Of a stretch of DNA of 63,844 bases, positions 10,936 to 62,462 are shown one piece after another (the first letter of the stretch is position 1; the number at the start of each line of letters is the position of its first letter). Source of the DNA: Alphaproteobacteria bacterium (GTDB taxonomy: Bacteria > Pseudomonadota > Alphaproteobacteria > Rs-D84 > CACZYB01); contig JBJEXC010000011.1 in NCBI GenBank assembly GCA_051885355.1, positions 1 to 63,844 on the forward strand. The letters are read 5' to 3'. Position numbers and translations under genes: made by a program. The notes beneath the pieces were generated by a model. The model worked only from the letters and a program-made list of their open reading frames with translations, was not told where the DNA came from and ran no database searches.

Positions 10936-10943
<8 letters not shown>
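10386..10943 (+). CDS. Secreted coiled-coil protein, paralog B (unknown function)
   Basis: Same plan as 9388-10386: signal peptide ...PSLAQ, coiled coil, SEDACKNIS and IKNCIDSF matching SKSACTQLS and VKSCKGTF. Start taken at MKNIFYT; the ATG overlaps the stop of paralog A. Confidence 0.6.
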
Positions 10944-12881
<1,938 letters not shown>

Positions 12882-16169: not shown

Positions 16170-16175
16170 ATCACA

Positions 16176-17555: not shown

Positions 17556-17570
17556 TTTATACCTCTTTGG

Positions 17571-42485: not shown

Positions 42486-42896
42486 TTATATTTCACTTAT
42501 GAAAAAGAAAAGTTCTTCAACCCGCCTTTTATATATACCTTTAAGTTTGGATTTAAAACCGAAATCCCATTCACGACAAATAGCCTCAAAATCTTTATTA
42601 ATAATAGCCTGCCTTAATTTAGATTTTTTAAACGCAGGACCACCAACATTATACACAAGTGATACAACGGCCTCCAATTGACGCCCTCTCAAATTCAAAT
42701 CAGAAATATATGGCATCACTTCACAATCAATCCATTTAGAAAGAAGTATCTCAGCCCTCTCCTCTGTAATACTCATTCCTTCATAAACAGGCACACCATC
42801 AACACTTGTATTTCCATAACCAATAGTCCAAACACCAGCCGGACATTTATAGGCAACAAGTAAGCACCCTTCATACTTTTTTATCAAAGAATTCAT
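42486..42896 (-). CDS. Phage-type lysozyme (GH24 endolysin)
   Basis: KKYEGC...AYKCPAGVWTIGYGNT contains the catalytic Glu and the TIGYG motif. The ATGA start overlaps the upstream lipoprotein stop. Confidence 0.85.
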   Translation of the reverse strand: MNSLIKKYEGCLLVAYKCPAGVWTIGYGNTSVDGVPVYEGMSITEERAEILLSKWIDCEVMPYISDLNLRGRQLEAVVSLVYNVGGPAFKKSKLRQAIINKDFEAICREWDFGFKSKLKGIYKRRVEELFFFISEI

Positions 42897-43123
42897 TTGC
42901 ACTCACTCATATAAATTTCATAATAAATATTAAGATGACGAGCCGTTTCCAAAGTATCCTGTCTGCTTGGAAGCATAGGTTCATATATGGCACAAAAACT
43001 ATCAATCTCGGTAGTGCAACTTGTCAGCACTAACACTATTAACACGAGATTTAATCTTAGTTTTCGTATTAACTTTTTTAAGAATTTTTTTAGTCTGCTT
43101 TGCTTTCTGTTTCGACACACCAT
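42893..43123 (-). CDS. Rz1/o-spanin-like lysis lipoprotein
   Basis: Basic N-region, lipobox LVLTSC, and a short mature part with conserved Cys (CAIYEPMLPSRQDTLETARHL...C). The start is embedded out of frame in the upstream ORF. Confidence 0.5.
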   Translation of the reverse strand: MVCRNRKQSRLKKFLKKLIRKLRLNLVLIVLVLTSCTTEIDSFCAIYEPMLPSRQDTLETARHLNIYYEIYMSECK

Positions 43124-43193
43124 TTTCTTCTCCTTTAAAATAAACAAGTAAAGTTCCCAAAATCCCAGCCATAATACAATAAACTTTTTTCAT
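43002..43193 (-). CDS. N-terminally anchored, highly basic small protein (i-spanin- or holin-accessory-like)
   Basis: TM segment VYCIMAGILGTLLVYF followed by a Lys-rich tail. It overlaps the lipoprotein ORF in another frame, as Rz/Rz1 pairs do. Confidence 0.4.
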   Translation of the reverse strand: MKKVYCIMAGILGTLLVYFKGEENGVSKQKAKQTKKILKKVNTKTKIKSRVNSVSADKLHYRD

Positions 43194-43194
43194 A

Positions 43195-43380
43195 TTATAC
43201 CCCTGTAAATAATAAGGTTAATATAGCAACTGGATTTTCAAACGAACCTTGATAAATTGAAACTCCTAAATAACCCAAAACAATCAAAGTTCCCAATATT
43301 CGTTTAAGACCTATTTGACCATCAGGTTTTACAAAACACTTTTTAAGTGCAGTTAATATAAATTCAAATATTTTTTTCAT
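43195..43380 (-). CDS. Holin-like small membrane protein
   Basis: 61 aa with 2-3 hydrophobic segments, an AAGGAG Shine-Dalgarno, and the first position of the lysis cassette. Confidence 0.5.
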   Translation of the reverse strand: MKKIFEFILTALKKCFVKPDGQIGLKRILGTLIVLGYLGVSIYQGSFENPVAILTLLFTGV

Positions 43381-43571
43381 TATTACTCCTTTAAATAGAA
43401 AAATACTCACGAAATGCAAGTATTAAGATTAAAAAAAAACTCCCCCTAACGGAGGAATTAAACATAACTAACAAAATAATAATGGAGAGAGACTTATCCT
43501 ATTAGTCAGAAAATACTATACACCATTTTACTCCAAAAGTCAAGAACAAAATTAGAACAATTAATAATCTT

Positions 43572-44840
43572 TTACTTATCATTTGAATTTACTAACATTT
43601 CTAAATTTACAACACTGTGTTCCACATCATTATTTAAATTACTAATAGCCTTATCAAACATATTATCCTTTTCAGTAGTTTTCATTACCTCATTAAATTC
43701 CTCTTGAAAATTTTGTTGGAACTGTTGTTTCAATTCATCAGGTAAAAAGAAATACTCATGCCCCTTTAACCATTTTTTAACTTGCTTATTAAATGCTTCA
43801 CATAATTTTGGCATACCTGTTTTTTCTTCATCAGAAGATTTAATATAATTTTCCCAAATTTTTACAATAGATTCAAATGCTTCTTTTTCATTTTCATCTA
43901 TCCCCATTCTACTCTTTATACTTTTCTTCAATTCATCAAAATTATTAGGAAAATTACCTCTGTTTGAAATATACAATTTTATATTAGGGTATTTTTTATC
44001 GACCTTTCTAACTTCAATATTTGGAAGACTATAATTACCTTCTGTAATAACATCTTTTTCTTCTTTAAGAGGAAGTCTATATTCTTTTATAAATCCACTA
44101 ATTTCCTCCAAATTTTCTCTTAAATTTCTTCGCCAAATATTTTCAAGTGTATCCTTTTTTCCACCACCAGCAATAGTTTTATCAGAAATATTTACAATAG
44201 CAGTTGTCTTAAAATATTTAGGATAGTTTTCCAAAGACAATGCAGGAGATGAAATAAAAACTTTTGGTAAAGATAATAAATGTTCAATTTGTTTTTCATT
44301 AAATTTAGTTTGCTTTAATTTTTCTTTAAGCAAATGTTCCAGTTGTGATACAACAACAGTCCCAAAACAATGTCCCCGTAAAAATAATTTATTTAAATTT
44401 TTTGCTACCACATAATAATCATCACTTAGTAAAGGAGAAATCGTTTTATTGAAAATATCTTTCACAGGATTACAAACATCCTCAACATTTTCAATATTAT
44501 CCATATTATTATACTTATGAATTAAAACATCTGCCTTATTTTCATATACAGCGGTAAAAAACTTTGCATTAACAGAAGATACAGAAATCATCTGTTTTGT
44601 TTTTTCTGTTGCATTCTTCGCATCACGCATACATTTTTCTTCACCCGTATGACTTATTGCCATACCAGAACCAGGAAAATTAAGAACAATAATTTCATTA
44701 CTATTTGAAGTTATTTTATCAACTTTTTCACCATTTAAACCAACAAAGAAAGTATTACCAATCCAATCTTTTTCCCCATCTTCATTTGTCTCTATCTCCA
44801 AAGCAGATGGCTCTCTTACCTCATATTCAAATCCAGTCAT
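43572..44840 (-). CDS. Hypothetical protein with alpha/beta-hydrolase-like GHCFG nucleophile elbow
   Basis: VLNFPGSG (oxyanion-hole-like) and LFLRGHCFGTVVV (G-x-Cys-x-G). 422 aa. Confidence 0.5.
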   Translation of the reverse strand: MTGFEYEVREPSALEIETNEDGEKDWIGNTFFVGLNGEKVDKITSNSNEIIVLNFPGSGMAISHTGEEKCMRDAKNATEKTKQMISVSSVNAKFFTAVYENKADVLIHKYNNMDNIENVEDVCNPVKDIFNKTISPLLSDDYYVVAKNLNKLFLRGHCFGTVVVSQLEHLLKEKLKQTKFNEKQIEHLLSLPKVFISSPALSLENYPKYFKTTAIVNISDKTIAGGGKKDTLENIWRRNLRENLEEISGFIKEYRLPLKEEKDVITEGNYSLPNIEVRKVDKKYPNIKLYISNRGNFPNNFDELKKSIKSRMGIDENEKEAFESIVKIWENYIKSSDEEKTGMPKLCEAFNKQVKKWLKGHEYFFLPDELKQQFQQNFQEEFNEVMKTTEKDNMFDKAISNLNNDVEHSVVNLEMLVNSNDK

Positions 44841-44896
44841 TAAATCCTACCTCATTATATTTAAAGAAAAAATATTTTTATCAAAAAAAGAGGGTA

Positions 44897-46354
44897 TTAT
44901 CTACCCTCATCACCTCTAGTTATCGATAATCCTTTTGAAGATTTCTTACTTTTAACTTCAAGTTTTATACTTCCTTCATCAAACATTGATTTTTTATGCA
45001 TAACTTTATTAAAGGCAATATTTTCTTCTTTACTTGCTACTTTCAAATCAATATTTTCATTGAAACCAATATAATTAACAGCATGTTTTTTTAACTCCAA
45101 AATTTCATCTTTATATTTTAGAAGAACAGACTTTAGATTTGCTTTATTTGATAATGCTATTTCTTTAACTATATTCATAGAAAGCTCCAGAGGAACAAAC
45201 TTATCATCATTCCAATTTTTAAAAACAACTTTTGGTGGATATTTTTTATAATCTTCATCTCTAATTTTTTTATATTTATCAACAGTTTGTTTTACAAAAG
45301 AATCATCTTTATCAAAACCACAATGATTTAAGATATTTTCTCTTTCTTCAGGATGATTTTTATAAATATAAGTATAAAGTCCATCAAAATATTCTGCTTT
45401 TTTCTTAGTATAAATTTCTTTATCTATATTAGAAAAAAGAGCTCTGTTAATTTTTATTAATATTTTATAATACTCATTGCTATCTATACCTTTATTTTTA
45501 TTAGCCTGTTTATCAAAAGCCTTATATTCAAGAGTTTCATCATATCCATATTTAAAAGTTTGGTCATAGTAACCTTTAATTCTATCTCTATATAAATCAG
45601 CAGATAAATATCCTTCTTTAATTAAAGGTCTTTCTTTCAATTTTTCATGCAACTCATAGTATGTGTGTATAAATTCTTTTGGAAGACCAATATCCATAGA
45701 TCCAAAATTACGAATATTAAGGAAGAATTGTTCAGGTGGAGTTTTCTTAGCCTCCTCAAAAAGGTGAATATTTCTTCTCATATTTTTTATACGCTTTTTG
45801 CGTATCGTACTAATTAATTTGTCTTTACGCAATGCTTCAAACTTTCCTTTATCGTCATTTAAATCTACAAAAAGTTTTGAACATTTCTTTATCAAAGGCA
45901 AAATAGTATCATTATAATATTTATTATCTTTAGCAACTATAGCATCAAAATTTTTTTTACGACTATTTATATAATTTGAACGCATATATTTTAAATGATT
46001 TTTATTAACAACTACCCCACCTTTAAAATCACTTGGAATATATTTACTTAACTTATCACTGAAAGAAGTTATTGGAGATATCATATAGTAGGATTTTCCT
46101 GCCAACATATCCATTTCTTTTATATCTTCTATTACATCTTCTTTAAATAATTCATCATATTGTTCTAAAATATCAAAATCATCTTCAATATAAAAACCAT
46201 CATCATAATTATTAAATGATAAATCCTCCTCAGGATAATCATAATATACGGTTAAACCTCTATCTATTTCTTCTTTTACTTCTTCAGGTATTGGGGTATT
46301 ATTTGCCTGTTTTATTATTCTGTTAATTTTCTTTTTAATATCTTTTTCACTCAT
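44897..46354 (-). CDS. Hypothetical protein (485 aa)
   Basis: Long ORF with an AAGGAG Shine-Dalgarno and no motif recognised. It is the first gene of an apparent two-gene unit. Confidence 0.55.
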   Translation of the reverse strand: MSEKDIKKKINRIIKQANNTPIPEEVKEEIDRGLTVYYDYPEEDLSFNNYDDGFYIEDDFDILEQYDELFKEDVIEDIKEMDMLAGKSYYMISPITSFSDKLSKYIPSDFKGGVVVNKNHLKYMRSNYINSRKKNFDAIVAKDNKYYNDTILPLIKKCSKLFVDLNDDKGKFEALRKDKLISTIRKKRIKNMRRNIHLFEEAKKTPPEQFFLNIRNFGSMDIGLPKEFIHTYYELHEKLKERPLIKEGYLSADLYRDRIKGYYDQTFKYGYDETLEYKAFDKQANKNKGIDSNEYYKILIKINRALFSNIDKEIYTKKKAEYFDGLYTYIYKNHPEERENILNHCGFDKDDSFVKQTVDKYKKIRDEDYKKYPPKVVFKNWNDDKFVPLELSMNIVKEIALSNKANLKSVLLKYKDEILELKKHAVNYIGFNENIDLKVASKEENIAFNKVMHKKSMFDEGSIKLEVKSKKSSKGLSITRGDEGR

Positions 46355-46385
46355 AATTTTTCTCCTTTTTGTTAGACATAATTCT

Positions 46386-46412
46386 ATTTTACCCCCCCCC
46401 AGATTTTGTCAA
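46386..46412 (-). promoter_or_regulatory. Sigma70-type promoter TTGACA-N15-TAAAAT whose spacer contains a G9 tract
   Basis: Minus strand reads cTTGACAaaatctGGGGGGGGGTAAAATagaatta. It lies about 32-58 nt upstream of the ATG at 46354. Confidence 0.6.
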
Positions 46413-46723
46413 GAAAAAAAGATATAAATTCTTATACCCTCTAAAAAAACTAAATAACAACCTTCTGCATAAATTCAAGAAAAATTAGAATCTCCCCTTT
46501 AAAGCAAAAAAAAATCCCCCATACAGAAGGATTTTTCAAACTTTAGTAGGTGTTAGTAAACTATTCACTAACTTTTCTATAACTCCTACCAACCTATTGA
46601 TTTCCTCCAATTTATTCCATTTTTAGAATTTTCGCTTAGTGTTGTATGGTGGGGGATGAAAAATGTTATATTTTATGTTTTTTAATTTACCATCAAAAAA
46701 AACTATTGACTTTTAAAACAAAA

Positions 46724-46761
46724 TGTCGTATATTGACACTATATTTTGTCGTATATTGACA
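46724..46761 (+). promoter_or_regulatory. Two copies of palindromic TGTCGTATATTGACA (putative AbiEi operators)
   Basis: Copies at 46724-46738 and 46747-46761, 23 bp centre to centre, ending 13 nt upstream of the abiEi ATG. Confidence 0.6.
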
Positions 46762-46773
46762 TAAGGTAATAAT

Positions 46774-47229
46774 ATGAAAAAACAGACTTTAATTAATACT
46801 ATTAAATTAAAAATAAATAAAAGTAGAAAAAATACTTTCTTACTTAAGGATTTTAATAACCTTATTGAAAAATACGATTATGATCAAGTTTTACGTGGCT
46901 TAAGAGGATTAGTTAAAGACGGTTTTCTTATTAAAATATCAAGGGGCATTTATGCAAAAACAAAAATTTTAAGTGACGGTTCAATATTACTTAATAAAGG
47001 AATAAATGAACTTGCAACTGAGGCTTTAAATAATCTTGGTATTAAAACTGGTCCTTCAAGTTATTCAATACAATACATAAATGGAGATACAACTCAAGTG
47101 CCAACTGGACGAGTAATTGCTGTTAATAAAAGGGTTAGAAGAAAAATCGGGTATAATGGCAATTACATAAAGTTTGAAAAAATAAATAAAACATATCTTA
47201 ACAATTTATATAATAATCAAAATAGGTAA
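46774..47229 (+). CDS. abiEi: AbiEi-family antitoxin/transcriptional regulator
   Basis: LRGLRGLVKDGFLIKISRGIYAK is the AbiEi winged-helix signature. It lies directly upstream of an AbiEii-type gene. Confidence 0.8.
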   Translation: MKKQTLINTIKLKINKSRKNTFLLKDFNNLIEKYDYDQVLRGLRGLVKDGFLIKISRGIYAKTKILSDGSILLNKGINELATEALNNLGIKTGPSSYSIQYINGDTTQVPTGRVIAVNKRVRRKIGYNGNYIKFEKINKTYLNNLYNNQNR

Positions 47230-47234
47230 ACAAA

Positions 47235-48131
47235 ATGCTTCCACAAAATGAAATATTTGAAAAAATTGCACAAGATAAAGGTTGTAATATTGCATTTCCA
47301 ATAAAAGAAAACTTCCTTTTACAAGTAATAAAACAGTTTGTAGAAAATCTTGAATTACCAAATGGGTATAAATTTATTTTTGGTGGTGGAACAAGTCTTG
47401 TCTGTGCTTATGATGAACTTACAAAACGTTTTAGTGAAGATGCTGATTTCCGTATCGTACCAAAACCTAAACATACGGAAGATATAAGAAATCAACTTAA
47501 ACAAATTGCAGATAATTTAAAGGGATTTAAGTTATCAAATCGTAAAGATGATAGAAACATGATTACATTTTCATTTGAGGCTACAGATTTTAATATTCCT
47601 TCACATGAAGCAATTAAACCAGATATTAAAATGGAAGTATTTTTCACAAATAATTTATTTTATGAACCAAAAGAAAAAGAACTTATATCCTTTTATAATA
47701 AGTATGCAGGATTACCTTCTGAAACTAAAGTATTGTGTGTTTCTCTTGAAGATACAACTATTGATAAAATAAGCACATTACTATGGAGAATTGCATCAAA
47801 CAAAACTGAAACTCCTAAATATAATAAACCTGATATAAGACATTTGCATGATTTAGCTTATTTATATCCTAAGTTAAATATTGATGATAAATTCAAAAGT
47901 TATGTTTTACAAGTTGTAAATCAAGATATAAAGGAAAGATTAAAAAGTGATAAAACTTTCAATGAAGTTGTAAATGAAGTTTTATTAGAGTTAAAAACAA
48001 ATAAAACATATAAAAATGACTTTAAAACATATGTTGAAAATATGTCTTATGAAAAAACAGATAACCAATTAACTTTTGAAAAAGTATTAGAAAGTTTTGA
48101 GAAATTGATTTCGAAAATAGTTAGTATTTAA
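47235..48131 (+). CDS. abiEii: AbiEii/AbiGii-family nucleotidyltransferase toxin (DUF1814)
   Basis: FGGGTSLVCAY...RFSEDADF nucleotidyltransferase motif. 298 aa. Confidence 0.85.
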   Translation: MLPQNEIFEKIAQDKGCNIAFPIKENFLLQVIKQFVENLELPNGYKFIFGGGTSLVCAYDELTKRFSEDADFRIVPKPKHTEDIRNQLKQIADNLKGFKLSNRKDDRNMITFSFEATDFNIPSHEAIKPDIKMEVFFTNNLFYEPKEKELISFYNKYAGLPSETKVLCVSLEDTTIDKISTLLWRIASNKTETPKYNKPDIRHLHDLAYLYPKLNIDDKFKSYVLQVVNQDIKERLKSDKTFNEVVNEVLLELKTNKTYKNDFKTYVENMSYEKTDNQLTFEKVLESFEKLISKIVSI

Positions 48132-48139
48132 TAAAAATA

Positions 48140-48967
48140 TCAATTGTCATTATACCCCAAACCATTTCTAGTACATAAAGTGTCTTTCCACCATTGTTCT
48201 CTATCTATAATAATTTTATCACTTACTTTAGAATTAAATATATCTAATATTGAATACTGAAAATTTTTCTTTATATAATCAAATCCTTTTTCATTTACAA
48301 TTTTTTTTAAGATTTTATTTCCTCCATGCCCATTATCGACATAATTTTTCCATCTTCCAAGTAACGCTTCATTTCCATATGCAGATCCCACATATAATTT
48401 ACCATTATTTTTATCTGTTATTAAATATACCGCTTTTTGATTTTTAAAAGCATTTATCCAATCTATCTTATTTTTCTCCAATATATTTTTTAATTCAATA
48501 TATGATAAACACACATTATCATAACCTTTAAATTCTTTTCCATCATAAGGAGTTGGCAAAATATTAGTTACAATAAGTTTGTCTAAACAGTTATTTGCAG
48601 TAAGACATTGTTGTTGACTCGTTTTATGAAAATTTATAATAATTCTTCCAAAAAATGGTTTATATTCATCTAATTCAGTCCCCTCAAAAGAAATTCCATT
48701 TTTAATCTTTAAATCTTTTGTAACCTTTTTTATTGTTGTTAATAAATGTGTATCTGCATTTAATTCTAATAAAGATATGGCAATTTGTCCCTCTTTAAAA
48801 TTAGCATTATAAGTTCTTCCAAACAAATAATTTATATTAACTATATCTGGATTTTCCACATACTTATCTACTATGTCTTTTTCTGAATAATAATTATTAA
48901 ATTTTATTTTAGTAATATTAACCTGATCTTTAGTCAAATGAAGTATATCATTAAGTTTTATATCCAT
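48140..48967 (-). CDS. GIY-YIG nuclease-domain protein with about 170-aa N-terminal domain of unknown function
   Basis: KAVYLITDKNNGKLYVGSAYG...LLGRWKNY... is a GIY-YIG core. Confidence 0.75.
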   Translation of the reverse strand: MDIKLNDILHLTKDQVNITKIKFNNYYSEKDIVDKYVENPDIVNINYLFGRTYNANFKEGQIAISLLELNADTHLLTTIKKVTKDLKIKNGISFEGTELDEYKPFFGRIIINFHKTSQQQCLTANNCLDKLIVTNILPTPYDGKEFKGYDNVCLSYIELKNILEKNKIDWINAFKNQKAVYLITDKNNGKLYVGSAYGNEALLGRWKNYVDNGHGGNKILKKIVNEKGFDYIKKNFQYSILDIFNSKVSDKIIIDREQWWKDTLCTRNGLGYNDN

Positions 48968-49293
48968 TTTCTTTCCTATATGTTTAATATATTTTAAGTA
49001 TCAATACACATTACTAAATATAATAATATAACTAAAAGAATAAAATCACAACTATTTCTTCAGCATATTTATAATTTTAAAATAAACAAACATAGAATAT
49101 TCAAAATTTAACCATAAATAATTATAGAAACTTCATTTTTACATTCCTATAAATGTAATTTCTAACATTTTTAGGTTCCAATAAATGTAATTTTTTTTAC
49201 ATTTTAGTTTGATACAATATATTTTTTATGAAAAATAACAAAACTGTCCTTTATATATATAATAATAACTACTTCAAAATAAGTTAAAGATAC

Positions 49294-50643
49294 TTAATTT
49301 TCAAGCCTCATTAACCAATTAAGAACATTTTGACGCTTTATTCCATTTATATCTTCACTACCAATATCCATTGACAATATATATTTTTTATAGTTATCAT
49401 TTATTTCTTTTAATGGGCGAAGTTCTCTATTCAATGTATCTGTAGATTCATTAACATAATATGCAACTTGATAATATTCTACAATATTATCTTTTTTAGC
49501 TACAAAATCAACTTCTATTGAAACTCGTTCTGTTTTACCTTCTTTATTCTTTATATACTTAGATATTTGACCAAAGGAAACTTTATAACCTCTTCTTAAT
49601 AATTCTAAATATACAAGGTTCTCCAGCATATGACCTTTATCTTCAGTATACTTTCTGTTAGCAAGTAAAGTATTTCTTAAACCTATATCAACAACAAAAT
49701 ATTTTGAATTACCATTTAATATTTGCTTTCCTTTTATGTTATATCTTTTACATTCATATAATAAGTAACTATCCAATAAACCTTTTATATATTTTGATAT
49801 ATCTGGAACAGATATTTTTATTCCCGTATTTTTAAGAGCATTTGCTATTCCTCTTAAAGATGTTTCACTTCCTATATTATTGAATATATATAAAATTACA
49901 TTCTCTAAATTTTTAGAATTTTTTATATTAAATCTTTTTATTATATCCTTTTGTAAAGTATTGTTATAAACAACATCTCTAAGGTAATCTTCTATCATCT
50001 GTCTATCCCAAGATAAATTAACAGTTTGAGGAAAACCACTATTTTGAATATATTTTAAATATATGTCATTTATACTATCTTTAGTTAATACTTCTTGTTT
50101 TGATTTACCATTGTTTTCATTTGTCAAAAGATAAGCTCCATAGTATTCAGCAAATGAATAAGGTTGCATTTTTATTTCAACATATCTACCCCCAAAGAAA
50201 TTAGAAAGATCACTTGAGAACATATATGCATTTGAACCAGTTAGATATACATCAACATTATCTTGCAAACGTAAAGTATTTGCTACCTGTTGCCAATTAT
50301 TAAGAAGTTGTATTTCATCTATAAATACATAATTCATTTTATTTGGTTGAATTTTACTCATAATAAAATTAAGCAATGTTTCAAAACTATCCAAGAAACC
50401 ATCCTTATTCAAAGACAATCCTATTTCTTGAACTTTTAGTTGGTCTTCAAGGTTTATACTTATTATTTGGTCTTTTGTTATCTTCTTTTCTTCTAATAAT
50501 TTGTTTTGAAATATTTCCAAAAGTTTGGACTTACCGCAACGTCTTACACCTGTGATTATTTTCACTAAATCAGGTGAATTACTCCATTTCTCTAGTTTTT
50601 GGATATATTCATTCCTGTAAAATAAATTTTTATCGTAAGGCAT
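49294..50643 (-). CDS. AAA-type ATPase (AAA_14 + DUF4143 architecture)
   Basis: P-loop GVRRCGKSKLL, Walker B VFIDEIQ and a C-terminal DUF4143-like region. Start at MPYDKN. Confidence 0.8.
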   Translation of the reverse strand: MPYDKNLFYRNEYIQKLEKWSNSPDLVKIITGVRRCGKSKLLEIFQNKLLEEKKITKDQIISINLEDQLKVQEIGLSLNKDGFLDSFETLLNFIMSKIQPNKMNYVFIDEIQLLNNWQQVANTLRLQDNVDVYLTGSNAYMFSSDLSNFFGGRYVEIKMQPYSFAEYYGAYLLTNENNGKSKQEVLTKDSINDIYLKYIQNSGFPQTVNLSWDRQMIEDYLRDVVYNNTLQKDIIKRFNIKNSKNLENVILYIFNNIGSETSLRGIANALKNTGIKISVPDISKYIKGLLDSYLLYECKRYNIKGKQILNGNSKYFVVDIGLRNTLLANRKYTEDKGHMLENLVYLELLRRGYKVSFGQISKYIKNKEGKTERVSIEVDFVAKKDNIVEYYQVAYYVNESTDTLNRELRPLKEINDNYKKYILSMDIGSEDINGIKRQNVLNWLMRLEN

Positions 50644-50883
50644 TTTAACCTCCATAATGCTTTTCCCTTTAATTATATTACGATTTTGTGTAAAGTCAAT
50701 ATTTTATTTGAAATTTCTAAACAATTTTATGTATATACACACTTTTGTTTAAAAAATTTATAATAATTTTAAAATAACAGATAATATTTCTTATACCACA
50801 TTTTCTCTTAAAAGTCAAGAACAAAATACAAACATTATTTTCCCCTTGCCTTATATAATCGGAGTTAGTATAATTTTCCCATT

Positions 50884-53585: not shown

Positions 53586-54596
53586 TTAAATCAAATCTAA
53601 CCTTTTTAGTAATATTACTTCTTGACTCATAAAAACAGTATCTCCTGATTTATTTTTTATTACCTTAACGTTATTTCCTAAAAATTCTTCTATATCATTA
53701 GCAATTTTATCAATCTTCTTAGAGTTTATACCAGAGTTACCACTCTTCGCTCCAACCTCTTCCATTGTAGTCATATTTTTATTAGATGCAACATTTGTTT
53801 TCATTGACGAGTATAAACCATATACGCCTATACTCATATTAACTGTATTACCTGCCATATCCCAGGTCATATCTGAATTATTCATATACTGACCTGAGAA
53901 GTTCTCATAATAACCATATTCATTTTTTCCCTGATATAACATATAGCCATCTTCTGCAAACCCTGTTAAACCCATTGATGTATAGCCAATACCTGAAACT
54001 AAATTACTACCACCAACAGTAAAACCTGAAGATACAAGACCTAATCCATTCTTTGCAGTAGAATACATCAACTGATTTTTATTTACTTTTCCATTTTCTG
54101 TATAATACATTCCATTACTATCTGGACCAGTTTTCAAACTTGCTATATTACTTCCTAAATTTTGAGCACTTTTACCTGCAGTATATGCTGTCCAAGCCCA
54201 CATTCCTAGTTTTACTGCTCCTATCACAAGAGGAGGAATATTATCCCTATTCTCTACCCTACTCCAATCTATCGTATTCCCTATTACATAAGATGAATTG
54301 TTATCCACGCTCCAATTACCCAAACTGGTATCTTTTCCGTTTATCCATAGACTGTCGGTATATGCTCCTATGAAGTTATTACCAAGATACTTTGCGAAAT
54401 CTTCATTTGAGCCATATATTGCATGACCTACTTCATGACCAAATACTCCCAATCCTTTTTCTGTATTTCCATTTATATATAAATCATTTAGGTATATATC
54501 GTGGGTATCTTTATCGTGGTGTTGTATATAGCAAGCGTTTACACTTGATGTGAAAGAGAAAAGGAGGATAAGGATATAGGTGAGGAAGTTAGTCAT
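53586..54596 (-). CDS. Leader-bearing polymorphic toxin cassette T5 (HExxH module + variable C-terminus; apparently frameshifted near the 3' end)
   Basis: Leader MTNFLTYILILLFSFTSSVNAC, then HDKDTHDIY...FGHEVGHAIYGS...WSRVENRDN, then a unique region. A second frame continues to 53476. Confidence 0.7.
   Translation of the reverse strand: MTNFLTYILILLFSFTSSVNACYIQHHDKDTHDIYLNDLYINGNTEKGLGVFGHEVGHAIYGSNEDFAKYLGNNFIGAYTDSLWINGKDTSLGNWSVDNNSSYVIGNTIDWSRVENRDNIPPLVIGAVKLGMWAWTAYTAGKSAQNLGSNIASLKTGPDSNGMYYTENGKVNKNQLMYSTAKNGLGLVSSGFTVGGSNLVSGIGYTSMGLTGFAEDGYMLYQGKNEYGYYENFSGQYMNNSDMTWDMAGNTVNMSIGVYGLYSSMKTNVASNKNMTTMEEVGAKSGNSGINSKKIDKIANDIEEFLGNNVKVIKNKSGDTVFMSQEVILLKRLDLI
54248..54551. repeat. 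304-bp perfect direct repeat, copy 1 (copy 2 at 55838-56141)
   Basis: Every 10-mer block was checked by eye at a constant offset of 1590 bp. Confidence 0.9.
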
Positions 54597-55161
54597 TTTT
54601 TAGAAGTAATTCATTTATATCCAAATTTAATTTTTTTAATAAAATATCTTCATTATCATAAAATAATTTATCAATTAAATTATCTTTTTTTAATTCATTT
54701 AAAACATATATTAAAAAACCTACTATTGTTATAGTATTTAATTTAAAATTATTTATCCCATCATTTAAAATAGTATTTAAGTTTATTTTTAAATTTTTAT
54801 CCCTTATATCTTTAAATAAATATATATATTCTTTAATACTAATTCCTAAAACAGAACTATACTGGTTAATATTTATTTTTACAAAATACCTCCAATAATT
54901 TAATAAATTCAATATATTGCGAAGTGTATTATTCATTAATTGAGTATTAACAATTCTATTTTCTAATTCAGCATCCCCAAATTCTATATCTATAATAGAA
55001 ATCAAAGAGTTAACCTCATAAACAAACTCTTTTTCTGTTTCATTTATATTATCTATATTAAAATAATATTGAAAAATATCAGATAAACTATGTTGTTTAT
55101 TAAGAATAAAATTATACAAATTATTCATTTGATCTATAATATATTTTGATTCTATATACAT
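54589..55161 (-). CDS. Immunity-like protein (190 aa)
   Basis: Starts 8 nt after the T4 stop. Its last codons AAT GAC TAA overlap the T5 leader ATG. Confidence 0.55.
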   Translation of the reverse strand: MYIESKYIIDQMNNLYNFILNKQHSLSDIFQYYFNIDNINETEKEFVYEVNSLISIIDIEFGDAELENRIVNTQLMNNTLRNILNLLNYWRYFVKININQYSSVLGISIKEYIYLFKDIRDKNLKINLNTILNDGINNFKLNTITIVGFLIYVLNELKKDNLIDKLFYDNEDILLKKLNLDINELLLKND

Positions 55162-55169
55162 TTCTTTTC

Positions 55170-56186
55170 CTATTTCAAATTAGTTATTTTTCTACCTGGA
55201 ATAACTGTAATAACAGAACCTTCATTATTTGTTACTACATTTACTTTATTAATTTTATCATAATAATATATTTTTGTAGCAGAACTATTAATTTCTTTAG
55301 TTCCCGAAGAAATAGTATTTTCTACAACAGATGGAGAAAGACCTCTACCTTGCATTTGATCTAATGCATGTCCTGTATAATATCTGTCTAATATTGTCGT
55401 AGGTTTATTTGTCCCAGATTGTATAGATATAGGATTATTTATTACTCCAACAATTTCATGTGTTCCTGTTTTAGGTAATGGTTTTGCAACCTTTTCCGCT
55501 TCTCCAAGATATTTTAAATCTGTTCCTATACCACTAATATGATCTATGTCTAAAGCATCATCAACTTTACTCATTAACTTTGAACCAACCTTACTTACTG
55601 CTTTTCCTCCTACATATAATCCCCCTCCAATGATTAAATCTGTCGCTCCTTCTTTTATGTTCCCTCCAGCTGTATATATCTTACCGTCTACTATCGGATC
55701 CTTATATTCTGTCTTACCCTTATATCCTTTCCCCTTTATCCATGCATATATCTTCCTTGCACTATCTTGGATTGAGTATACCTCTCCTGCTATTACTAAA
55801 GCTGTTATTGCCATACTAATAGGTTCAAAGTTGTCTTTATTCTCTACCCTACTCCAATCTATCGTATTCCCTATTACATAAGATGAATTGTTATCCACGC
55901 TCCAATTACCCAAACTGGTATCTTTTCCGTTTATCCATAGACTGTCGGTATATGCTCCTATGAAGTTATTACCAAGATACTTTGCGAAATCTTCATTTGA
56001 GCCATATATTGCATGACCTACTTCATGACCAAATACTCCCAATCCTTTTTCTGTATTTCCATTTATATATAAATCATTTAGGTATATATCGTGGGTATCT
56101 TTATCGTGGTGTTGTATATAGCAAGCGTTTACACTTGATGTAAAAGTGAAGAGTAGGATAAGTATATAGGTTAGAAAGTTAGTCAT
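55170..56186 (-). CDS. Leader-bearing polymorphic toxin cassette T4 (HExxH module, shared middle domain, RNase-like tip)
   Basis: Same leader and HExxH module (304 bp identical to T5), then VENKDN. The middle domain is shared with T0 and T1. The tip YYTGHALDQMQGRGLSPSVVENTI...GSVITVIPG resembles DUF4258/BECR-type RNase toxins. Confidence 0.7.
   Translation of the reverse strand: MTNFLTYILILLFTFTSSVNACYIQHHDKDTHDIYLNDLYINGNTEKGLGVFGHEVGHAIYGSNEDFAKYLGNNFIGAYTDSLWINGKDTSLGNWSVDNNSSYVIGNTIDWSRVENKDNFEPISMAITALVIAGEVYSIQDSARKIYAWIKGKGYKGKTEYKDPIVDGKIYTAGGNIKEGATDLIIGGGLYVGGKAVSKVGSKLMSKVDDALDIDHISGIGTDLKYLGEAEKVAKPLPKTGTHEIVGVINNPISIQSGTNKPTTILDRYYTGHALDQMQGRGLSPSVVENTISSGTKEINSSATKIYYYDKINKVNVVTNNEGSVITVIPGRKITNLK
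55838..56141. repeat. 304-bp perfect direct repeat, copy 2
   Basis: See 54248-54551. Confidence 0.9.
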
Positions 56187-56568
56187 TTAAGTTTAAATTA
56201 TATATACTATATTTATCATATAATGTTAAAGAAATTAAATATCTATCATTTCTAATAGAAGAAACAAAAGTTAAATATTTTTTCATCTCATCTATAGCTT
56301 CATTTATGCAAACATTATAATTCTTTTTTGCTATATCACACTTATATTCCCAATGGGTGAATCCTGTAACATCATAATCATATATATTTTCATCAATTTT
56401 TGTGAAAATTTCACCAAAAGCAATCAACAATTTATGTTCTTTTATAAAATCTATAATATCATCTACAATATCAATATAAAAACCTAGTTTATTACTATGA
56501 TAAGGTAATAGTGGATATACTTTATCTTGTAAATTTTCTTTTAAAAAAATTCTATATTCAACCTGCAT
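56179..56568 (-). CDS. Immunity-like protein (129 aa)
   Basis: AGGAG Shine-Dalgarno 9 nt after the T3 stop. Ends ...LND with a stop overlapping the T4 leader ATG. Confidence 0.55.
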   Translation of the reverse strand: MQVEYRIFLKENLQDKVYPLLPYHSNKLGFYIDIVDDIIDFIKEHKLLIAFGEIFTKIDENIYDYDVTGFTHWEYKCDIAKKNYNVCINEAIDEMKKYLTFVSSIRNDRYLISLTLYDKYSIYNLNLND

Positions 56569-56577
56569 TTTTATCTC

Positions 56578-58038
56578 CTAACGTAAATTTTTAGTTATTT
56601 TATTAGCTTCTTTAAATAATCTATGTGTTATAGTATTATTTCTAGGATCTAACACATATTCAAAAAATCCTTTATTCCCATTTTTAGTACCTTCTATAAT
56701 AGCTTTATAATATATATTATTATCTCCTCCTGTAAATTTAACCCAATCTTTTGGTTTTAATAATTTATCTATTAAAATAGGAAAATCATGATTATCACCT
56801 TTCCCAATTTTACTTAATACAGAGGAACTATATTTAAAATCATTAGCATCACCTTTAAATAACCCTCTAATACCTCCCTTAATACCTTTCACAAATGGTG
56901 CTATTCCCATTAATAAATTACCACCAATATCCATTGTACCATATATCTTTAAATTTGTCTCTAAATCTTCTGATGATATATGTTCTCCACTTGGTCTCAT
57001 ATATTCTCCATTACCTATATATCCTACATCAGCTATCGCTTTTGCCTCACCTCCTTTGTATGCTCCTACAGCTGCAATAATTACTCCTCCCACAAAAGTT
57101 ATCGTAACAGGCTCTAAATTATCCCTGTTCTCTACCTTACTCCAATCCATCGTATTCCCTATTACATAAGATGAATTGTTATCCACGCTCCAATTACCTA
57201 GACTGGTATCTTGTCCGTTTATCCATAGGCCGTCGGTATAGGCTCCTGTGAAGTTATTACCCAGATACTTTACGAAATCTTCATCTGAGCCGTATATTGC
57301 ATGACCTACTTCATGACCGAATACTTCCAATCCCTTTTCTGTATTTCCATTTATATACAAGTCATTTAGGTATATATCGTGGGTATCTTTATCGTGGGAA
57401 CCTCCTGTGATAACTCCTACCACTTTGTTGGTATTATCATTTACACCAAGTTCCATACCAGCAAAAGTTTTAACATTACCGATTTTTATATAATCGTCAT
57501 CGGTTTCATCTTTACCTGTATTATAGATACCAGCAATTTCATTTTTAAACATAGCAAGAGCTATATCTTTTTCTTCCACAGTTGCATCAATTTGACCAGA
57601 CAGAATCGCAACCGCTTCTTCACCACCGTTTGTATTCAATAGATTTGATATTGCAAGCTTAGATACTTCTTTGTATCTGATACCACTTAAAGCTTGGTTC
57701 AAAGTGACATCAGTCATAACTGCGTCATACAAATTAGTTGCTATATTTTCAATGAAACTCTCAGATACCTTGAAATCCTTCAATATCTTCTTTCTCCCCT
57801 CCCCACTAAACACCCTATTGTCTATAGTCATACTTCCATCCAAAGCACCAGTGATTTTATCCTTTGTAATTTCTTGAGCTCTTTCTACATCCCTGTTTAG
57901 TCCCTCTAAATCAGAGTTAGTTTCCCCTCCTACTGTTATATTACCTGGGCCTATTGTTGCGTGAGGAAGATAACAAGCACTTACACTTGATGTAAAAGTG
58001 AAGAATAGGATAAGGATATAGGTGAGAAAGTTAGTCAT
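56578..58038 (-). CDS. Leader-bearing polymorphic toxin cassette T3 (pre-toxin block + HExxH module + unique tip)
   Basis: Leader, then HATIGPGNITVGGETNSDLEGLNRDVERAQEITKDKITGALDGSMTIDNRVFSGEG, a linker, then HDKDTHDIY...HEVGH...VENRDN and a unique 180-aa C-terminus. Confidence 0.75.
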   Translation of the reverse strand: MTNFLTYILILFFTFTSSVSACYLPHATIGPGNITVGGETNSDLEGLNRDVERAQEITKDKITGALDGSMTIDNRVFSGEGRKKILKDFKVSESFIENIATNLYDAVMTDVTLNQALSGIRYKEVSKLAISNLLNTNGGEEAVAILSGQIDATVEEKDIALAMFKNEIAGIYNTGKDETDDDYIKIGNVKTFAGMELGVNDNTNKVVGVITGGSHDKDTHDIYLNDLYINGNTEKGLEVFGHEVGHAIYGSDEDFVKYLGNNFTGAYTDGLWINGQDTSLGNWSVDNNSSYVIGNTMDWSKVENRDNLEPVTITFVGGVIIAAVGAYKGGEAKAIADVGYIGNGEYMRPSGEHISSEDLETNLKIYGTMDIGGNLLMGIAPFVKGIKGGIRGLFKGDANDFKYSSSVLSKIGKGDNHDFPILIDKLLKPKDWVKFTGGDNNIYYKAIIEGTKNGNKGFFEYVLDPRNNTITHRLFKEANKITKNLR

Positions 58039-58789
58039 TTTTCATCAAAACTGAAAATCTTATAATCAAATCAGAAAACAATAAAGATTTAAAATCTTTT
58101 TCATCATAAATCTCTATATTACAATCTGATATCAATGTATCTTTGGTTAAGGTATCAAAATAATTTTGTAATATTTGTTGCTTCTCTTTGTTTTCATTAC
58201 CAATAGGAATAAATTTAATTTTATAATCATTTATTATAATATCCCCTAAATATATATTTTCAATTTTTTTCAAATAAATCTTTGTATCATTAAAAACAGA
58301 CTTTGCCATATTGTCACTATATAAGGAATATATATTACTTTGCATTTGAGAAGTATTTTTTCCATGATAATCCAACATATTTTTCTTTCTTCTACAAGTC
58401 TGATTTCTACTATATGTCTTCCATTCTAAAACTTTATCAGAATTATCTACTTTAAATATTCCATTTTGATCAAAACTAAGTATACTATGCCCAGTTCCTA
58501 TTTTCAAATCTTCCTCACTAAAAGAAGTAATCAATTTTTTTCTACTTTTATCTTCATAAATAAAATATCTGATATCTCGTCTATCCTGTAAAGATATATT
58601 AGGATTATAATCAAGATTTAAAATATCACCTTTTTTAAAATACAATACATTATTATATTTGAAGTAAGGAATATAAACAAAAATTTCATCATAATATAAA
58701 TTTTTAATTACAACAGGAAAAACTGGATATACAATATGAAAACAAGCAGTTAATACCAACAAAATACACATTATAAATATTTTCTTCAT
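58031..58789 (-). CDS. Immunity-like lipoprotein (252 aa)
   Basis: Start at MKKIFIMCILLVLTACF (lipobox LTAC), 1 nt after the T2 stop. Ends ...KND overlapping the T3 leader ATG. The longer ORF-track start (58978) overlaps T2 and is rejected. Confidence 0.55.
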   Translation of the reverse strand: MKKIFIMCILLVLTACFHIVYPVFPVVIKNLYYDEIFVYIPYFKYNNVLYFKKGDILNLDYNPNISLQDRRDIRYFIYEDKSRKKLITSFSEEDLKIGTGHSILSFDQNGIFKVDNSDKVLEWKTYSRNQTCRRKKNMLDYHGKNTSQMQSNIYSLYSDNMAKSVFNDTKIYLKKIENIYLGDIIINDYKIKFIPIGNENKEKQQILQNYFDTLTKDTLISDCNIEIYDEKDFKSLLFSDLIIRFSVLMKND

Positions 58790-58790
58790 T

Positions 58791-59648
58791 TTAAATTCCC
58801 TTATATTTTTGATTTCCATATTTATCTGCATCGGCTTCAAATCTATTTTTTGATGTAAATGGATTATCCAATAAATACATAGGTAAAAATAGTGGCCCCC
58901 ACTGTCTATACTGTTGAACATGTCTATTTTCATGCTCTCTCCATATTGTCCAATCATCTTCTGTAGGAACCTCAACAAATAATCCTAACTCCCTTGCCTC
59001 TTTTACTCTTTCTGAATATTCATATGTACGATTAGCAATATCTATACCATCTCCATAATCATCAACATATCCAAAATAATTTACAACTTGTCCAAATGTT
59101 GTAGCCCAATCATTTAAATTTTCCTCTCCAAATAAACCATTTAACATATGAAACAAAGGATTTCCTATTATATTATGAATTCTATTTTCTTCATCATATT
59201 CATGTCTAGCTCCTAATAAAACTCCGATAGCTCCAATTGTAGCACCTATCATAGTATTTGGCAAGTTCCAAATATCTCCCAAAACTGTTAATGTATTCCC
59301 TACTAAATTCGTATGATCCTCTATTATACTCCTCCAGCCCTCTCCGCTAAATACCCTATTGTCTATAGTCATACTTCCATCCAAAGCACCAGTGATTTTA
59401 TCCTTTGTAATTTCTTGAGCTCTTTCTACATCCCTGTTTAGTCCCTCTAAATCAGAGTTAGTTTCCCCTCCTACTGTTATATTACCTGAGCCTATTGTAG
59501 CGTGAGTTATTTGTTCCTTTTCCGAACCCTTGTCCTTCATAGTTATAGTTGTTGAACCGTTTGGATGGATGGAGTAGTAATAGCAAGCATTTACACTTGA
59601 TGTGAAAGAGAAAATAAGAATGAGGATATAGGTAAGGAAGTTAATCAT
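58791..59648 (-). CDS. Leader-bearing polymorphic toxin cassette T2 (pre-toxin block + HExxH-containing tip)
   Basis: Leader MINFLTYILILIFSFTSSVNAC, a pre-toxin block 135 bp identical to T3, and a tip with NLPNTMIGATIGAIGVLLG and REHENRHVQQYRQWGPLF. Confidence 0.75.
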   Translation of the reverse strand: MINFLTYILILIFSFTSSVNACYYYSIHPNGSTTITMKDKGSEKEQITHATIGSGNITVGGETNSDLEGLNRDVERAQEITKDKITGALDGSMTIDNRVFSGEGWRSIIEDHTNLVGNTLTVLGDIWNLPNTMIGATIGAIGVLLGARHEYDEENRIHNIIGNPLFHMLNGLFGEENLNDWATTFGQVVNYFGYVDDYGDGIDIANRTYEYSERVKEARELGLFVEVPTEDDWTIWREHENRHVQQYRQWGPLFLPMYLLDNPFTSKNRFEADADKYGNQKYKGI

Positions 59649-60218: not shown

Positions 60219-60223
60219 TTCTC

Positions 60224-61691: not shown

Positions 61692-61700
61692 ATTAATCAC

Positions 61701-62051: not shown

Positions 62052-62110
62052 TTTTATCTCCTTTATTTTATTTAATAGGAAAATTACATTAGATTTCCTG
62101 ATTTTAACTT

Positions 62111-62461: not shown

Positions 62462-62462
62462 A

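What the first reader, a model, noticed from the sequence alone, without database searches (positions are those of the whole stretch)
46386..46412. G9 tract forms the spacer of a TTGACA / TAAAAT promoter: candidate transcriptional phase variation of a two-gene unit
On the minus strand, upstream of 44897-46354, the sequence is TTGACA-aaatct-GGGGGGGGG-TAAAAT, a 15-nt spacer that is suboptimal. Gain of 1-2 G would give the optimal 16-17 nt. Promoter-spacer homopolymers are an established ON/OFF/volume switch, for example in Neisseria porA and opc. The controlled unit is a 485-aa unknown protein plus a 422-aa protein with a GHCFG hydrolase-like elbow. It is closed by a terminator at about 43430-43460.
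Basis: partly seen in the sequence, partly recalled or inferred. Interest (0 to 1): 0.65.

Follow-up and report, generated by a model that had tools for sequence, protein, structure and literature searches.

The report
Poly-G tract inside a promoter spacer
A run of nine G's fills the gap between the two halves of the only plausible promoter of an unknown gene in an uncultured gut bacterium. It leaves the promoter 1-2 bases too short, so it is probably a slippage-driven on/off or volume switch of a well-known type, but switching could not be tested here.

Summary
On the minus strand, 46412..46386 reads TTGACA-aaatct-G9-TAAAAT with a 15-nt spacer. An AAGGAG ribosome-binding site and the ORF1 ATG (46354) follow at the right distances.

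It is the only credible promoter in the 155-nt gap between a strong upstream terminator and ORF1. Clear promoters elsewhere in the window use 16-17 nt spacers.

The window holds only two G/C runs of 7 or more. Both are G9 on the minus strand. The second lies in the 5' coding part of a capsule-type glycosyltransferase, a classic contingency gene. This supports a slipped-strand switch of the porA/opc/fetA kind.

Switching itself is untested. The only other copies come from the same strain and also carry G9, and no reads were available.

The "two-gene unit" is only partly supported. A hairpin plus T7 overlaps the ORF1 stop codon, so ORF2 would be made only by read-through.

ORF2 is confirmed as an alpha/beta-hydrolase fold with a Cys nucleophile (GHCFG) and belongs to an unannotated family of about 45 members. 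ORF1 is a near-orphan.

The pair is a mobile cassette. It sits in a defence island (AbiE, Uzume, PDC-S01) next to a phage lysis cassette.

Verdict: a new member of a known kind, of moderate interest.

The parts
46407..46412 (-). -35 hexamer TTGACA (6 of 6), preceded by a T-rich stretch (ctttttttc)
   Evidence: It is one of only 15 TTGACA on the minus strand of the window.
46392..46400 (-). G9 homopolymer (C9 on the + strand). It makes up 9 of the 15 spacer bases and is the proposed slippage-prone element.
   Evidence: The same length is seen in same-strain contig L008.
46401..46406 (-). Fixed part of the spacer (aaatct)
46386..46391 (-). -10 hexamer TAAAAT (5 of 6), 15 nt from the -35
   Evidence: The identical hexamer pair with a 17-nt spacer stands upstream of the gene at 41065.
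46381..46386 (-). Alternative -10-like hexamer TAGAAT (5 of 6), 20 nt from the -35
46362..46367 (-). Shine-Dalgarno AAGGAG, 7 nt before the ATG. The inferred 5' UTR is about 24 nt.
   Evidence: The SD and start region is conserved in homologues.
46509..46537 (-). Upstream intrinsic-terminator-like hairpin plus T-run. It would insulate the ORF1 promoter from transcription coming from upstream.
   Evidence: One search gives -16.0 kcal/mol, z -4.9, with 0 of 200 shuffles as good.
44897..46354 (-). ORF1, 485 aa. It is Lys/Asp/Glu/Tyr-rich, predicted helical and soluble, and belongs to a near-orphan family. This is the gene directly downstream of the promoter.
44883..44908 (-). Hairpin GAGGGTA-gataa-TACCCTC, with the ORF1 stop codon in its loop, followed by T7. 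It is a likely internal terminator or attenuator between ORF1 and ORF2.
   Evidence: One search gives -11.9 kcal/mol, z -2.6. The hairpin, without a T-run, is conserved in L003-L006.
43572..44840 (-). ORF2, 422 aa. It has an alpha/beta-hydrolase fold with a Cys nucleophile elbow (RGHCFG, C158), invariant D220 and H361, and an NFPGSGM loop.
   Evidence: One search gives pLDDT 87, with strand 152-157, C158, then helix 159-176.
43430..43459 (-). Terminator-like hairpin plus T-run downstream of ORF2
   Evidence: One search gives -12.6 kcal/mol, z -3.6.
43515..43543 (-). Promoter-like TTGACT-17-TATAGT between the ORF2 stop and that terminator. It would give a short terminated transcript just upstream of the lysis genes.

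Best explanation
The site is the sigma-70-type promoter of ORF1, and its spacer is made largely of a G9 tract.

Shown by the sequence:
- a perfect -35 and a 5-of-6 -10;
- a correct distance to a strong ribosome-binding site and ATG;
- an upstream terminator;
- no alternative promoter in the gap;
- a 15-nt spacer, where the genome's clear promoters use 16-17 nt.

Inferred: slipped-strand mispairing at the G9 tract during replication adds or removes G's. The spacer to TAAAAT is n+6 for a tract of n G's. G10, G11 and G12 would therefore give 16, 17 and 18 nt (on, or high). G9 gives 15 nt (low or off). The sequenced state would be a low-expression phase.

ORF1 is the gene directly controlled. ORF2, the Cys alpha/beta-hydrolase, would follow only as far as RNA polymerase reads through the hairpin and T7 at the ORF1 stop. 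Its ribosome-binding site lies too close to the only local -10 for that promoter to serve it, so read-through is the more likely source of its mRNA.

The cassette is a mobile, fast-evolving pair of unknown function in a defence island. Stochastic switching would let a subpopulation carry a product that is probably costly or conflict-related.
For: Anatomy. These show the only -35/-10 pairs of at least 11 of 12 in the 155-nt gap; all others score 8 of 12 or less.

Insulating terminator.

Native spacing:
- TTGACA-17-TAAAAT lies 37 nt upstream of the ATG at 41065.
- TTGACT-16-TATAAT lies upstream of the gene starting at 50655.
- TTGACT-16-TATAAT occurs in each of about 30 CRISPR repeats.

Tract census: there are only two G/C runs of 7 or more, both G9 on the same strand, and none of length 7-8. 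The expectation is 0.08.

Second G9: it lies at codons 58-60 of a PF05704 Caps_synth glycosyltransferase, just before the domain. That is the typical place for a translational contingency tract.

The tract is lineage-specific. Promoters of ORF1 homologues (L001, L002, L004) and all other related loci have no G/C run of 7 or more.

Precedent:
- In porA, 11G to 10G gives a 2-fold drop and 9G a 13-fold drop (PMC3639595).
- fetA carries a poly-C tract between -10 and -35 (PMC5320596).
- opc carries a poly-C promoter tract whose length changed during passage (PMC6389960).

Conflict-type context:
- AbiEi/AbiEii, UzuA and PDC-S01 lie next door.
- Resolvase-ORF1h-ORF2h moves as a unit between different flanks.
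- The N-terminal part of ORF1 is replaced between two strains whose flanks are 98.6% identical.
Against: No tract-length polymorphism was seen. The only other copies (L008/L017, and L019 for the second tract) are from the same strain, with 100% identity, and also carry G9.

There are no reads, no RNA data and no mapped TSS.

Promoter-like hexamer pairs are as common as chance in this AT-rich DNA.

The mismatch-repair status and slippage rate of this organism are unknown.

In AT-rich bacteria a good -10 can work with a poor or mis-spaced -35, so the effect of tract length may be modest.

Short promoter tracts can be fixed alleles rather than switches. The nspA 5A/6A tract is an example (PMC6389960).
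Confidence: 0.55

Rival explanations
1. This is a real promoter but a static one. The G9 tract is a fixed or decaying feature that leaves a horizontally acquired cassette weakly expressed or silent. Length changes are too rare to act as a switch.
For: The same G9 is found in every copy seen. Relatives have no homologous tract. nspA is a precedent for a promoter homopolymer that is allelic rather than phase-variable (PMC6389960).
Against: All copies seen are one strain, so they say nothing about variability. A nine-base G run is in the length range that switches in every system studied (established knowledge; porA and opc). The window shows a gap at lengths 7-8 with two tracts at 9, and the second G9 sits in a classic contingency gene. 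Both points argue that long tracts are maintained.
Confidence: 0.2
2. Tract length is largely irrelevant because ORF1 is transcribed in another way. Candidates are -35-independent initiation at TAAAAT or TAGAAT, another sigma factor or activator, or read-through from upstream.
For: Two overlapping -10-like hexamers are present. The surroundings are AT-rich and promoter-like sites are abundant. There are no TSS data.
Against: There is no TG extended -10; the three bases before TAAAAT are GGG. A strong terminator lies upstream. A perfect -35 standing exactly one spacer away is unlikely by chance: 15 TTGACA on the minus strand in 63.8 kb gives about 0.014 for a 60-nt stretch.
Confidence: 0.15
3. 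The homopolymer or its length is an assembly or sequencing artefact.
For: Homopolymers are error-prone. A Logan contig of the same strain ends 20 nt past the tract.
Against: An independently assembled contig from run SRR30616845 has the identical C9 and flanks. The second tract is also reproduced, and it keeps the glycosyltransferase in frame.
Confidence: 0.03

Closest known systems
Neisseria meningitidis porA (poly-G), opc and fetA/frpB (poly-C) promoter-spacer tracts
   Same: A G/C homopolymer of about 9-14 nt lies between -35 and -10. Tract length sets the spacing and hence graded or on/off transcription. In porA, 9G is the low state (PMC3639595; PMC5320596; PMC6389960).
   Different: Here the organism is an uncultured, low-GC (30%) gut bacterium. 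The controlled gene is a soluble protein of unknown function in a defence island, not an outer-membrane antigen. No switching or expression data exist.
Poly-G contingency loci of Campylobacter jejuni, Helicobacter and Haemophilus (translational, in surface-glycan glycosyltransferases)
   Same: This matches the second G9 of the window (11656-11664), in the 5' coding part of a Caps_synth glycosyltransferase. Other shared traits are about 30% GC, a long-tract-only distribution, and a Cas9 array with promoters inside the repeats (H. canadensis survey PMC2823697, listed).
   Different: The finding itself is transcriptional, not translational. The taxon is different: the nearest named relative of ORF1 is in a MAG labelled Alphaproteobacteria.
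Phase-variable defence genes (SSR-switched restriction-modification systems)
   Same: Stochastic switching of a conflict-related locus. The cassette lies beside AbiE, Uzume and PDC-S01.
   Different: ORF1 and ORF2 match no PADLOC, PHROG or Pfam model. A defence role rests only on neighbourhood and mobility.
Alpha/beta-hydrolases with a Cys nucleophile (G-x-C-x-G, dienelactone-hydrolase-like chemistry)
   Same: ORF2 has the strand-nucleophile-helix elbow with C158. D220 and H361 are invariant, and there is a PGSG loop after an early strand. The best fold matches are alpha/beta-hydrolases.
   Different: There is no sequence-level relative in PDB or Pfam. TM-scores are only 0.25-0.38. A long helical C-terminal extension is present. 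Substrate is unknown.

Membership tests
SSR-mediated transcriptional phase variation (promoter-spacer homopolymer, porA/opc/fetA type) | A homopolymer of about 8 nt or more lies between the -35 and -10 hexamers of the gene's promoter | tested here: met
   TTGACA-aaatct-G9-TAAAAT. It is the only strong pair in the gap.
SSR-mediated transcriptional phase variation (promoter-spacer homopolymer, porA/opc/fetA type) | The promoter is the one actually used (the TSS maps just downstream of the -10) | not testable with these tools
   No RNA runs were served. This is inferred only from geometry, the upstream terminator and the lack of alternatives.
SSR-mediated transcriptional phase variation (promoter-spacer homopolymer, porA/opc/fetA type) | Tract length varies within or between populations | tested here: inconclusive
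   The only other copies are the same strain and also G9. Three collection scans found no further copies.
SSR-mediated transcriptional phase variation (promoter-spacer homopolymer, porA/opc/fetA type) | Expression changes with tract length | not testable with these tools
   This needs reporter fusions or RT-qPCR on variants.
SSR-mediated transcriptional phase variation (promoter-spacer homopolymer, porA/opc/fetA type) | The genome carries other contingency-type tracts, with long G/C runs over-represented | tested here: met
   Two G9 against 0.08 expected. None of length 7-8. The second lies in the 5' coding region of a glycosyltransferase. Only 64 kb of the genome was available.
Two-gene operon ORF1-ORF2 | Co-transcription with no terminator between the genes | tested here: inconclusive
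   A hairpin plus T7 lies at the ORF1 stop. ORF1 homologues are monocistronic in L001, L002 and L007. Against that, ORF2's ribosome-binding site lies upstream of any TSS from the local TTGATA-19-TATAAT, and the pair is linked without a T-run in L003-L006.
Alpha/beta-hydrolase fold (ORF2) | Nucleophile elbow G-x-Nuc-x-G between a beta-strand and a helix | tested here: met
   G156-H-C158-F-G160 is invariant in 41 sequences. The model has strand 152-157, then helix 159-176, at pLDDT about 96.
Alpha/beta-hydrolase fold (ORF2) | Conserved acid and histidine completing a triad; overall fold match | tested here: met
   D220 and H361 are invariant. The top Foldseek hits are all alpha/beta-hydrolases: Obc1 at E 3e-4, lipases and YDR428C, and a Tupanvirus ORFan at E 3e-8. 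TM-scores are low (0.25-0.38), and the triad geometry in 3D was not inspected.
Known anti-phage defence systems (PADLOC) | Match of ORF1 or ORF2 to a defence-system model | tested here: not met
   There are no PADLOC hits for ORF1, ORF2 or the 581-aa ORF2 homologue. The neighbours hit AbiEi, AbiEii, UzuA and PDC-S01.

The most novel reading that the evidence does not exclude
ORF1 and ORF2 form a new mobile conflict cassette, either anti-phage or abortive-infection in type. ORF1 would be a hypervariable helical protein acting as sensor or partner. ORF2 would be a Cys alpha/beta-hydrolase acting as effector. Expression would be gated stochastically by a promoter-spacer poly-G switch. That would make it a phase-variable defence module outside the restriction-modification world, in an uncultured gut bacterium that uses poly-G contingency loci as Campylobacter and Neisseria do.
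Probability: 0.15. Interest if true: 0.65.

Novelty: new member of a known kind. Interest (0 to 1): 0.4.

Why it matters
If the tract switches, an uncultured low-GC gut bacterium would be using the same poly-G contingency strategy as mucosal pathogens. That would extend to transcriptional control of a mobile cassette of unknown function in a defence island.

The finding gives a concrete, cheap test: the tract-length spectrum in existing reads. It also flags two unannotated protein families for functional work. One is a family of about 45 Cys alpha/beta-hydrolases. The other is a near-orphan, fast-evolving partner.

If the tract does not switch, this is an ordinary weak promoter.

Tried and rejected
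- **Read-level tract spectrum.** The look-up of sequencing runs listed no run for two stretches. Read laying refuses SRR ids.
- **Other copies of the promoter.** Two pattern scans of metagenome contigs and one of viral contigs found nothing. Exact-protein look-ups of neighbours returned only same-strain contigs.
- **ORF1 function.** There are no Pfam, PHROG or PADLOC hits. Only 4-6 relatives exist in 5.8 and 1.8 billion proteins. The AF2 model has pLDDT 44, so it is unusable and was not fold-searched.
- **ORF2.** A profile search added no annotated relatives. There are no PDB sequence relatives and no phage or plasmid records.
- **Rfam.** Nothing was found in 43350-46800, nor in the structured leader of the L002 homologue.
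- **Shared module around the two G9 tracts.** Alignment of the flanks is not significant beyond TTGACAAA.
- **Island boundaries.** No repeat of the tRNA-Arg end was found.
- **Own promoter for ORF2.** TTGATA-19-TATAAT was considered and judged unlikely. Its -10 ends 13 nt before the ATG, so the GAGG ribosome-binding site would lie upstream of the TSS.
- **Contig break as evidence.** I rejected the Logan contig break 20 nt past the tract as evidence of heterogeneity. It does not sit at the k-mer bubble boundary, and breaks near homopolymers are generic.

Full report
**1. The observation**

On the minus strand the sequence reads cTTGACA-aaatct-GGGGGGGGG-TAAAAT-agaattatgtctaacaaAAGGAGaaaaattATG.

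| Element | Coordinates |
|---|---|
| -35 | 46412-46407 |
| G9 | 46400-46392 |
| -10 | 46391-46386 |
| Shine-Dalgarno | 46367-46362 |
| ORF1 ATG | 46354 |

A second -10-like hexamer, TAGAAT (46386-46381), overlaps the first and lies 20 nt from the -35.

**2. Is it more than chance?**

Hexamer pairs alone are not. The consensus scan finds 31 promoter-like sites in 42800-47400 against 30.9 expected. The conjunction is beyond chance.

- TTGACA occurs only 15 times on the minus strand of the whole window.
- In the 155 nt between the upstream terminator and the ORF1 ribosome-binding site, the only pairs scoring 11 of 12 are the two that use this TTGACA. Everything else scores 8 of 12 or less, and none of those has a 16-18 nt spacer.
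- The window contains exactly two G/C runs of 7 or more. Both are nine long and both are G on the minus strand. The census is C5 x15, C6 x1 and nothing at 7-8.
- Dinucleotide-preserving shuffles give 0.08 G9 tracts on average, and 1 of 100 shuffles reaches two.

**3. The promoter in its setting**

Upstream on the same strand there is a strong terminator-like hairpin with a T-run at 46537-46509. It folds at -16.0 kcal/mol with z -4.9. ORF1 therefore needs its own promoter within the next 155 nt.

Clear promoters elsewhere in the window have 16-17 nt spacers:

- The identical hexamer pair, TTGACA-17-TAAAAT, lies 37 nt upstream of the ATG at 41065.
- TTGACT-16-TATAAT lies in front of the gene starting at 50655.
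- TTGACT-16-TATAAT lies inside every one of about 30 CRISPR repeats.

As sequenced, the ORF1 promoter is thus 1-2 nt too short. For a tract of n G's the spacer to TAAAAT is n+6 and the spacer to TAGAAT is n+11. G10-G12 would give 16-18 nt to TAAAAT. G8-G9 are the worst lengths for both hexamers. This is arithmetic plus inference, not measurement.

**4. Does the tract vary?**

I could not test this.

- The neighbouring AbiEi and AbiEii proteins are found on Logan contigs from runs SRR30616845 and SRR30616848.
- One contig (L008/L017) crosses the tract and has C9. It is 100% identical to the window over 5,760 nt, so it is the same strain and not independent.
- The second tract is likewise G9 in the same run.
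- No run was served for read laying.
- Pattern scans of metagenome and viral contigs found no other copy.

**5. Indirect support for a contingency switch**

The second G9 (11664-11656) encodes Gly58-60 of a 300-aa protein. Its Caps_synth glycosyltransferase domain (PF05704, E 4e-64) begins at residue 63. The gene overlaps the obg stop codon (ATGA), and no in-frame ATG or GTG lies between the tract and the domain (only the Leu55 TTG of the TTGACA just upstream of the tract is in frame). The tract is therefore intragenic and currently in frame.

A poly-G run in the 5' part of a surface-glycan glycosyltransferase is the textbook translational contingency locus of Neisseria, Haemophilus, Campylobacter and Helicobacter. 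That statement rests on established knowledge; related literature was listed. This organism therefore appears to keep long G tracts where they can switch genes.

The ORF1 tract is lineage-specific. ORF1 homologues in L001, L002 and L004 have different upstream regions, and none of the 20 other related loci (L001-L007, L009-L016, L020-L023; the remaining three of the 23 fetched, L008, L017 and L019, are same-strain copies of the window's two tracts) has a G/C run of 7 or more.

**6. What is controlled: ORF1**

ORF1 (485 aa) is soluble, rich in Lys, Asp, Glu and Tyr, and predicted helical.

- It has no Pfam, PHROG or PADLOC match.
- It has only 4 relatives among 5.8 billion clustered proteins and 6 among 1.8 billion representatives.
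- Its AF2 model is unusable at pLDDT 44.
- It evolves fast. L001 and L002 are 98.6% identical up to about 70 nt into the gene. They then fail to align for about 270 nt and continue at 81% identity.

**7. What is controlled: ORF2**

ORF2 (422 aa) belongs to an unannotated family of about 45 members.

- Invariant features are NFPGSGM, R-G-H-C158-F-G, S-D220 and G-H361-E.
- The AF2 model is good, with pLDDT 87 and pTM 0.87. It places C158 exactly between strand 152-157 and helix 159-176.
- The best structural matches are all alpha/beta-hydrolases: the Obc1 hydrolase domain, lipases, YDR428C and a Tupanvirus ORFan. TM-scores are low, at 0.25-0.38.
- No sequence relative exists in PDB, phage records or plasmid records.

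**8. Is it a two-gene unit?**

Only partly. The ORF1 stop codon sits in the loop of the hairpin GAGGGTA-gataa-TACCCTC, which is followed by T7 (44908-44883). It folds at -11.9 kcal/mol with z -2.6.

- In L001, L002 and L007 the ORF1 homologue stands alone and ends in its own strong terminator.
- In L003-L006 the same hairpin is conserved at the nucleotide level but lacks the T-run. It is followed 47 nt later by a 581-aa ORF2 homologue with 52% identity.
- In the window, the only local promoter-like site for ORF2 is TTGATA-19-TATAAT. Its -10 ends 13 nt before the ATG, so the GAGG ribosome-binding site would not be on that transcript.

My reading is that ORF2 is made by read-through, and that the hairpin acts as an attenuator. 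This is inference.

Most ORF2-family members lie without an ORF1 homologue. They sit after a Fic gene, next to AAA_14/DUF4143 and PDDEXK genes, or alone.

**9. Neighbourhood**

The window is chromosomal, carrying LigA, Obg, Cas9, Lon, GlgX and PolA. It comes from a diderm bacterium, as shown by a ShlB/POTRA transporter. GC content is 30%. The nearest named relative of ORF1 is in a MAG labelled Alphaproteobacteria from a deer rectum.

Upstream of ORF1, divergently transcribed, lie three defence-type genes or pairs:

- AbiEi/AbiEii;
- a GIY-YIG UzuA (Uzume);
- an AAA_14/DUF4143 PDC-S01 protein.

Downstream of ORF2 lies a complete phage-type lysis cassette for a diderm host:

- a 61-aa membrane protein;
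- overlapping Rz-like and Rz1-like spanin genes, the latter with an LTSC lipobox;
- a GH24 endolysin.

The lysis cassette is preceded by TTGACT-17-TATAGT and then the terminator at 43459-43438.

Resolvase-ORF1h-ORF2h is 98.5% identical between L003 and L004 while the flanks differ. The pair is therefore a mobile cassette. All this points to a conflict-related role, but only by association.

**10. Comparison with known systems**

The mechanism proposed is that of porA, opc and fetA in Neisseria.

- In porA, moving from 11G to 10G halves expression, and 9G lowers it 13-fold (PMC3639595).
- fetA and opc use poly-C tracts between the promoter elements (PMC5320596; PMC6389960).
- The same paper shows that a short promoter tract (nspA, 5A/6A) can be a fixed allele rather than a switch. 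That is the main rival here.

Of the defining features of the family, position in the spacer and the presence of other contingency tracts are met. Length polymorphism is inconclusive. TSS use and length-dependent expression are not testable with these tools.

**11. Verdict**

The "two-gene unit" needs qualifying, and no switching has been shown.

It is a new member of a known kind, of moderate interest (0.4). The most novel reading is a phase-variable new defence or conflict cassette. It is not excluded, but it rests on neighbourhood alone (probability about 0.15).

Noticed in passing
window 11656-11664 (minus strand G9), ORF 10936-11838: A second G9 tract encodes Gly58-60 of a 300-aa Caps_synth (PF05704) glycosyltransferase, just before the domain and currently in frame. 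It is a candidate translational phase-variable glycan gene. The gene's ATG overlaps the obg stop codon.
   Followed up: partly
window 11673-11640 and 46412-46386 (minus strand): Both G9 tracts are directly preceded by TTGACAAA. The intragenic one also reads TTGACA-18-GATAAT, with TTGAC...GTCAA flanking the tract. The chance of a TTGACA within 0-8 nt upstream of a given position is about 0.002. The rest of the flanks are not significantly alike. Unexplained.
   Followed up: partly
window 14227-16171 (+), cas genes 16304-21434 (-): A CRISPR array of about 30 repeats of 36 nt has a 66-nt period. Each repeat carries TTGACT-16-(TGc)TATAAT reading into the next spacer, away from cas9-cas1-cas2. These are repeat-internal promoters, as described for type II-C systems (from my own knowledge).
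   Followed up: partly
window 42486-43543 (minus strand): A promoter-like TTGACT-17-TATAGT is followed after about 55 nt by a terminator. Next come a 61-aa membrane protein, overlapping Rz-like and Rz1-like spanins (LTSC lipobox) and a GH24 endolysin. The layout recalls a lambdoid late promoter and terminator ahead of lysis genes. No antiterminator was identified.
   Followed up: partly
window 46774-50655: A defence island holds AbiEi (151 aa) and AbiEii, a GIY-YIG UzuA (Uzume) and an AAA_14/DUF4143 PDC-S01 protein. The abiE promoter region holds two copies of the palindromic TGTCGTATATTGACA (46724-46738 and 46747-46761), which are likely AbiEi operators.
   Followed up: partly
window 46509-46640 (minus strand): A strong terminator has no ORF upstream of it on that strand, and imperfect stem-loops lie before it. 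This may be a small RNA or a leftover of an integration event. There was no Rfam match.
   Followed up: partly
L001 6053-6323 versus L002 3345-3711: Two contigs are 98.6% identical in their flanks, yet the N-terminal part of the ORF1 homologue differs completely and the rest is 81% identical. This indicates localised replacement or diversification of this gene.
   Followed up: partly
L003, L004, L005, L006 (end of the ORF1 homologue); window 44890-44908: The hairpin GAGGGTAGATAATACCCTC, which contains the stop codon, is conserved at the nucleotide level between proteins that are only about 50% identical. Only the window copy has the T-run. The hairpin may have a role beyond termination.
   Followed up: partly
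L001 5790-5960 and L002 3070-3240: A conserved leader of about 170 nt with a structured appearance lies between the RF-1-like gene and the ORF1 homologue. There were only sub-threshold Rfam hits (preQ1-II at E 0.11).
   Followed up: partly
window 53586-63827 (minus strand): A tightly packed operon of 13 genes (116-486 aa) has no Pfam or PHROG match at the thresholds used.
   Followed up: partly
L011-L013 5001-6647: A 548-aa ORF2-family member shares its C-terminal hydrolase part at 99.5% DNA identity with L004. It has a different N-terminal part and follows a Fic gene, with a resolvase nearby. This is modular shuffling of the hydrolase domain.
   Followed up: partly
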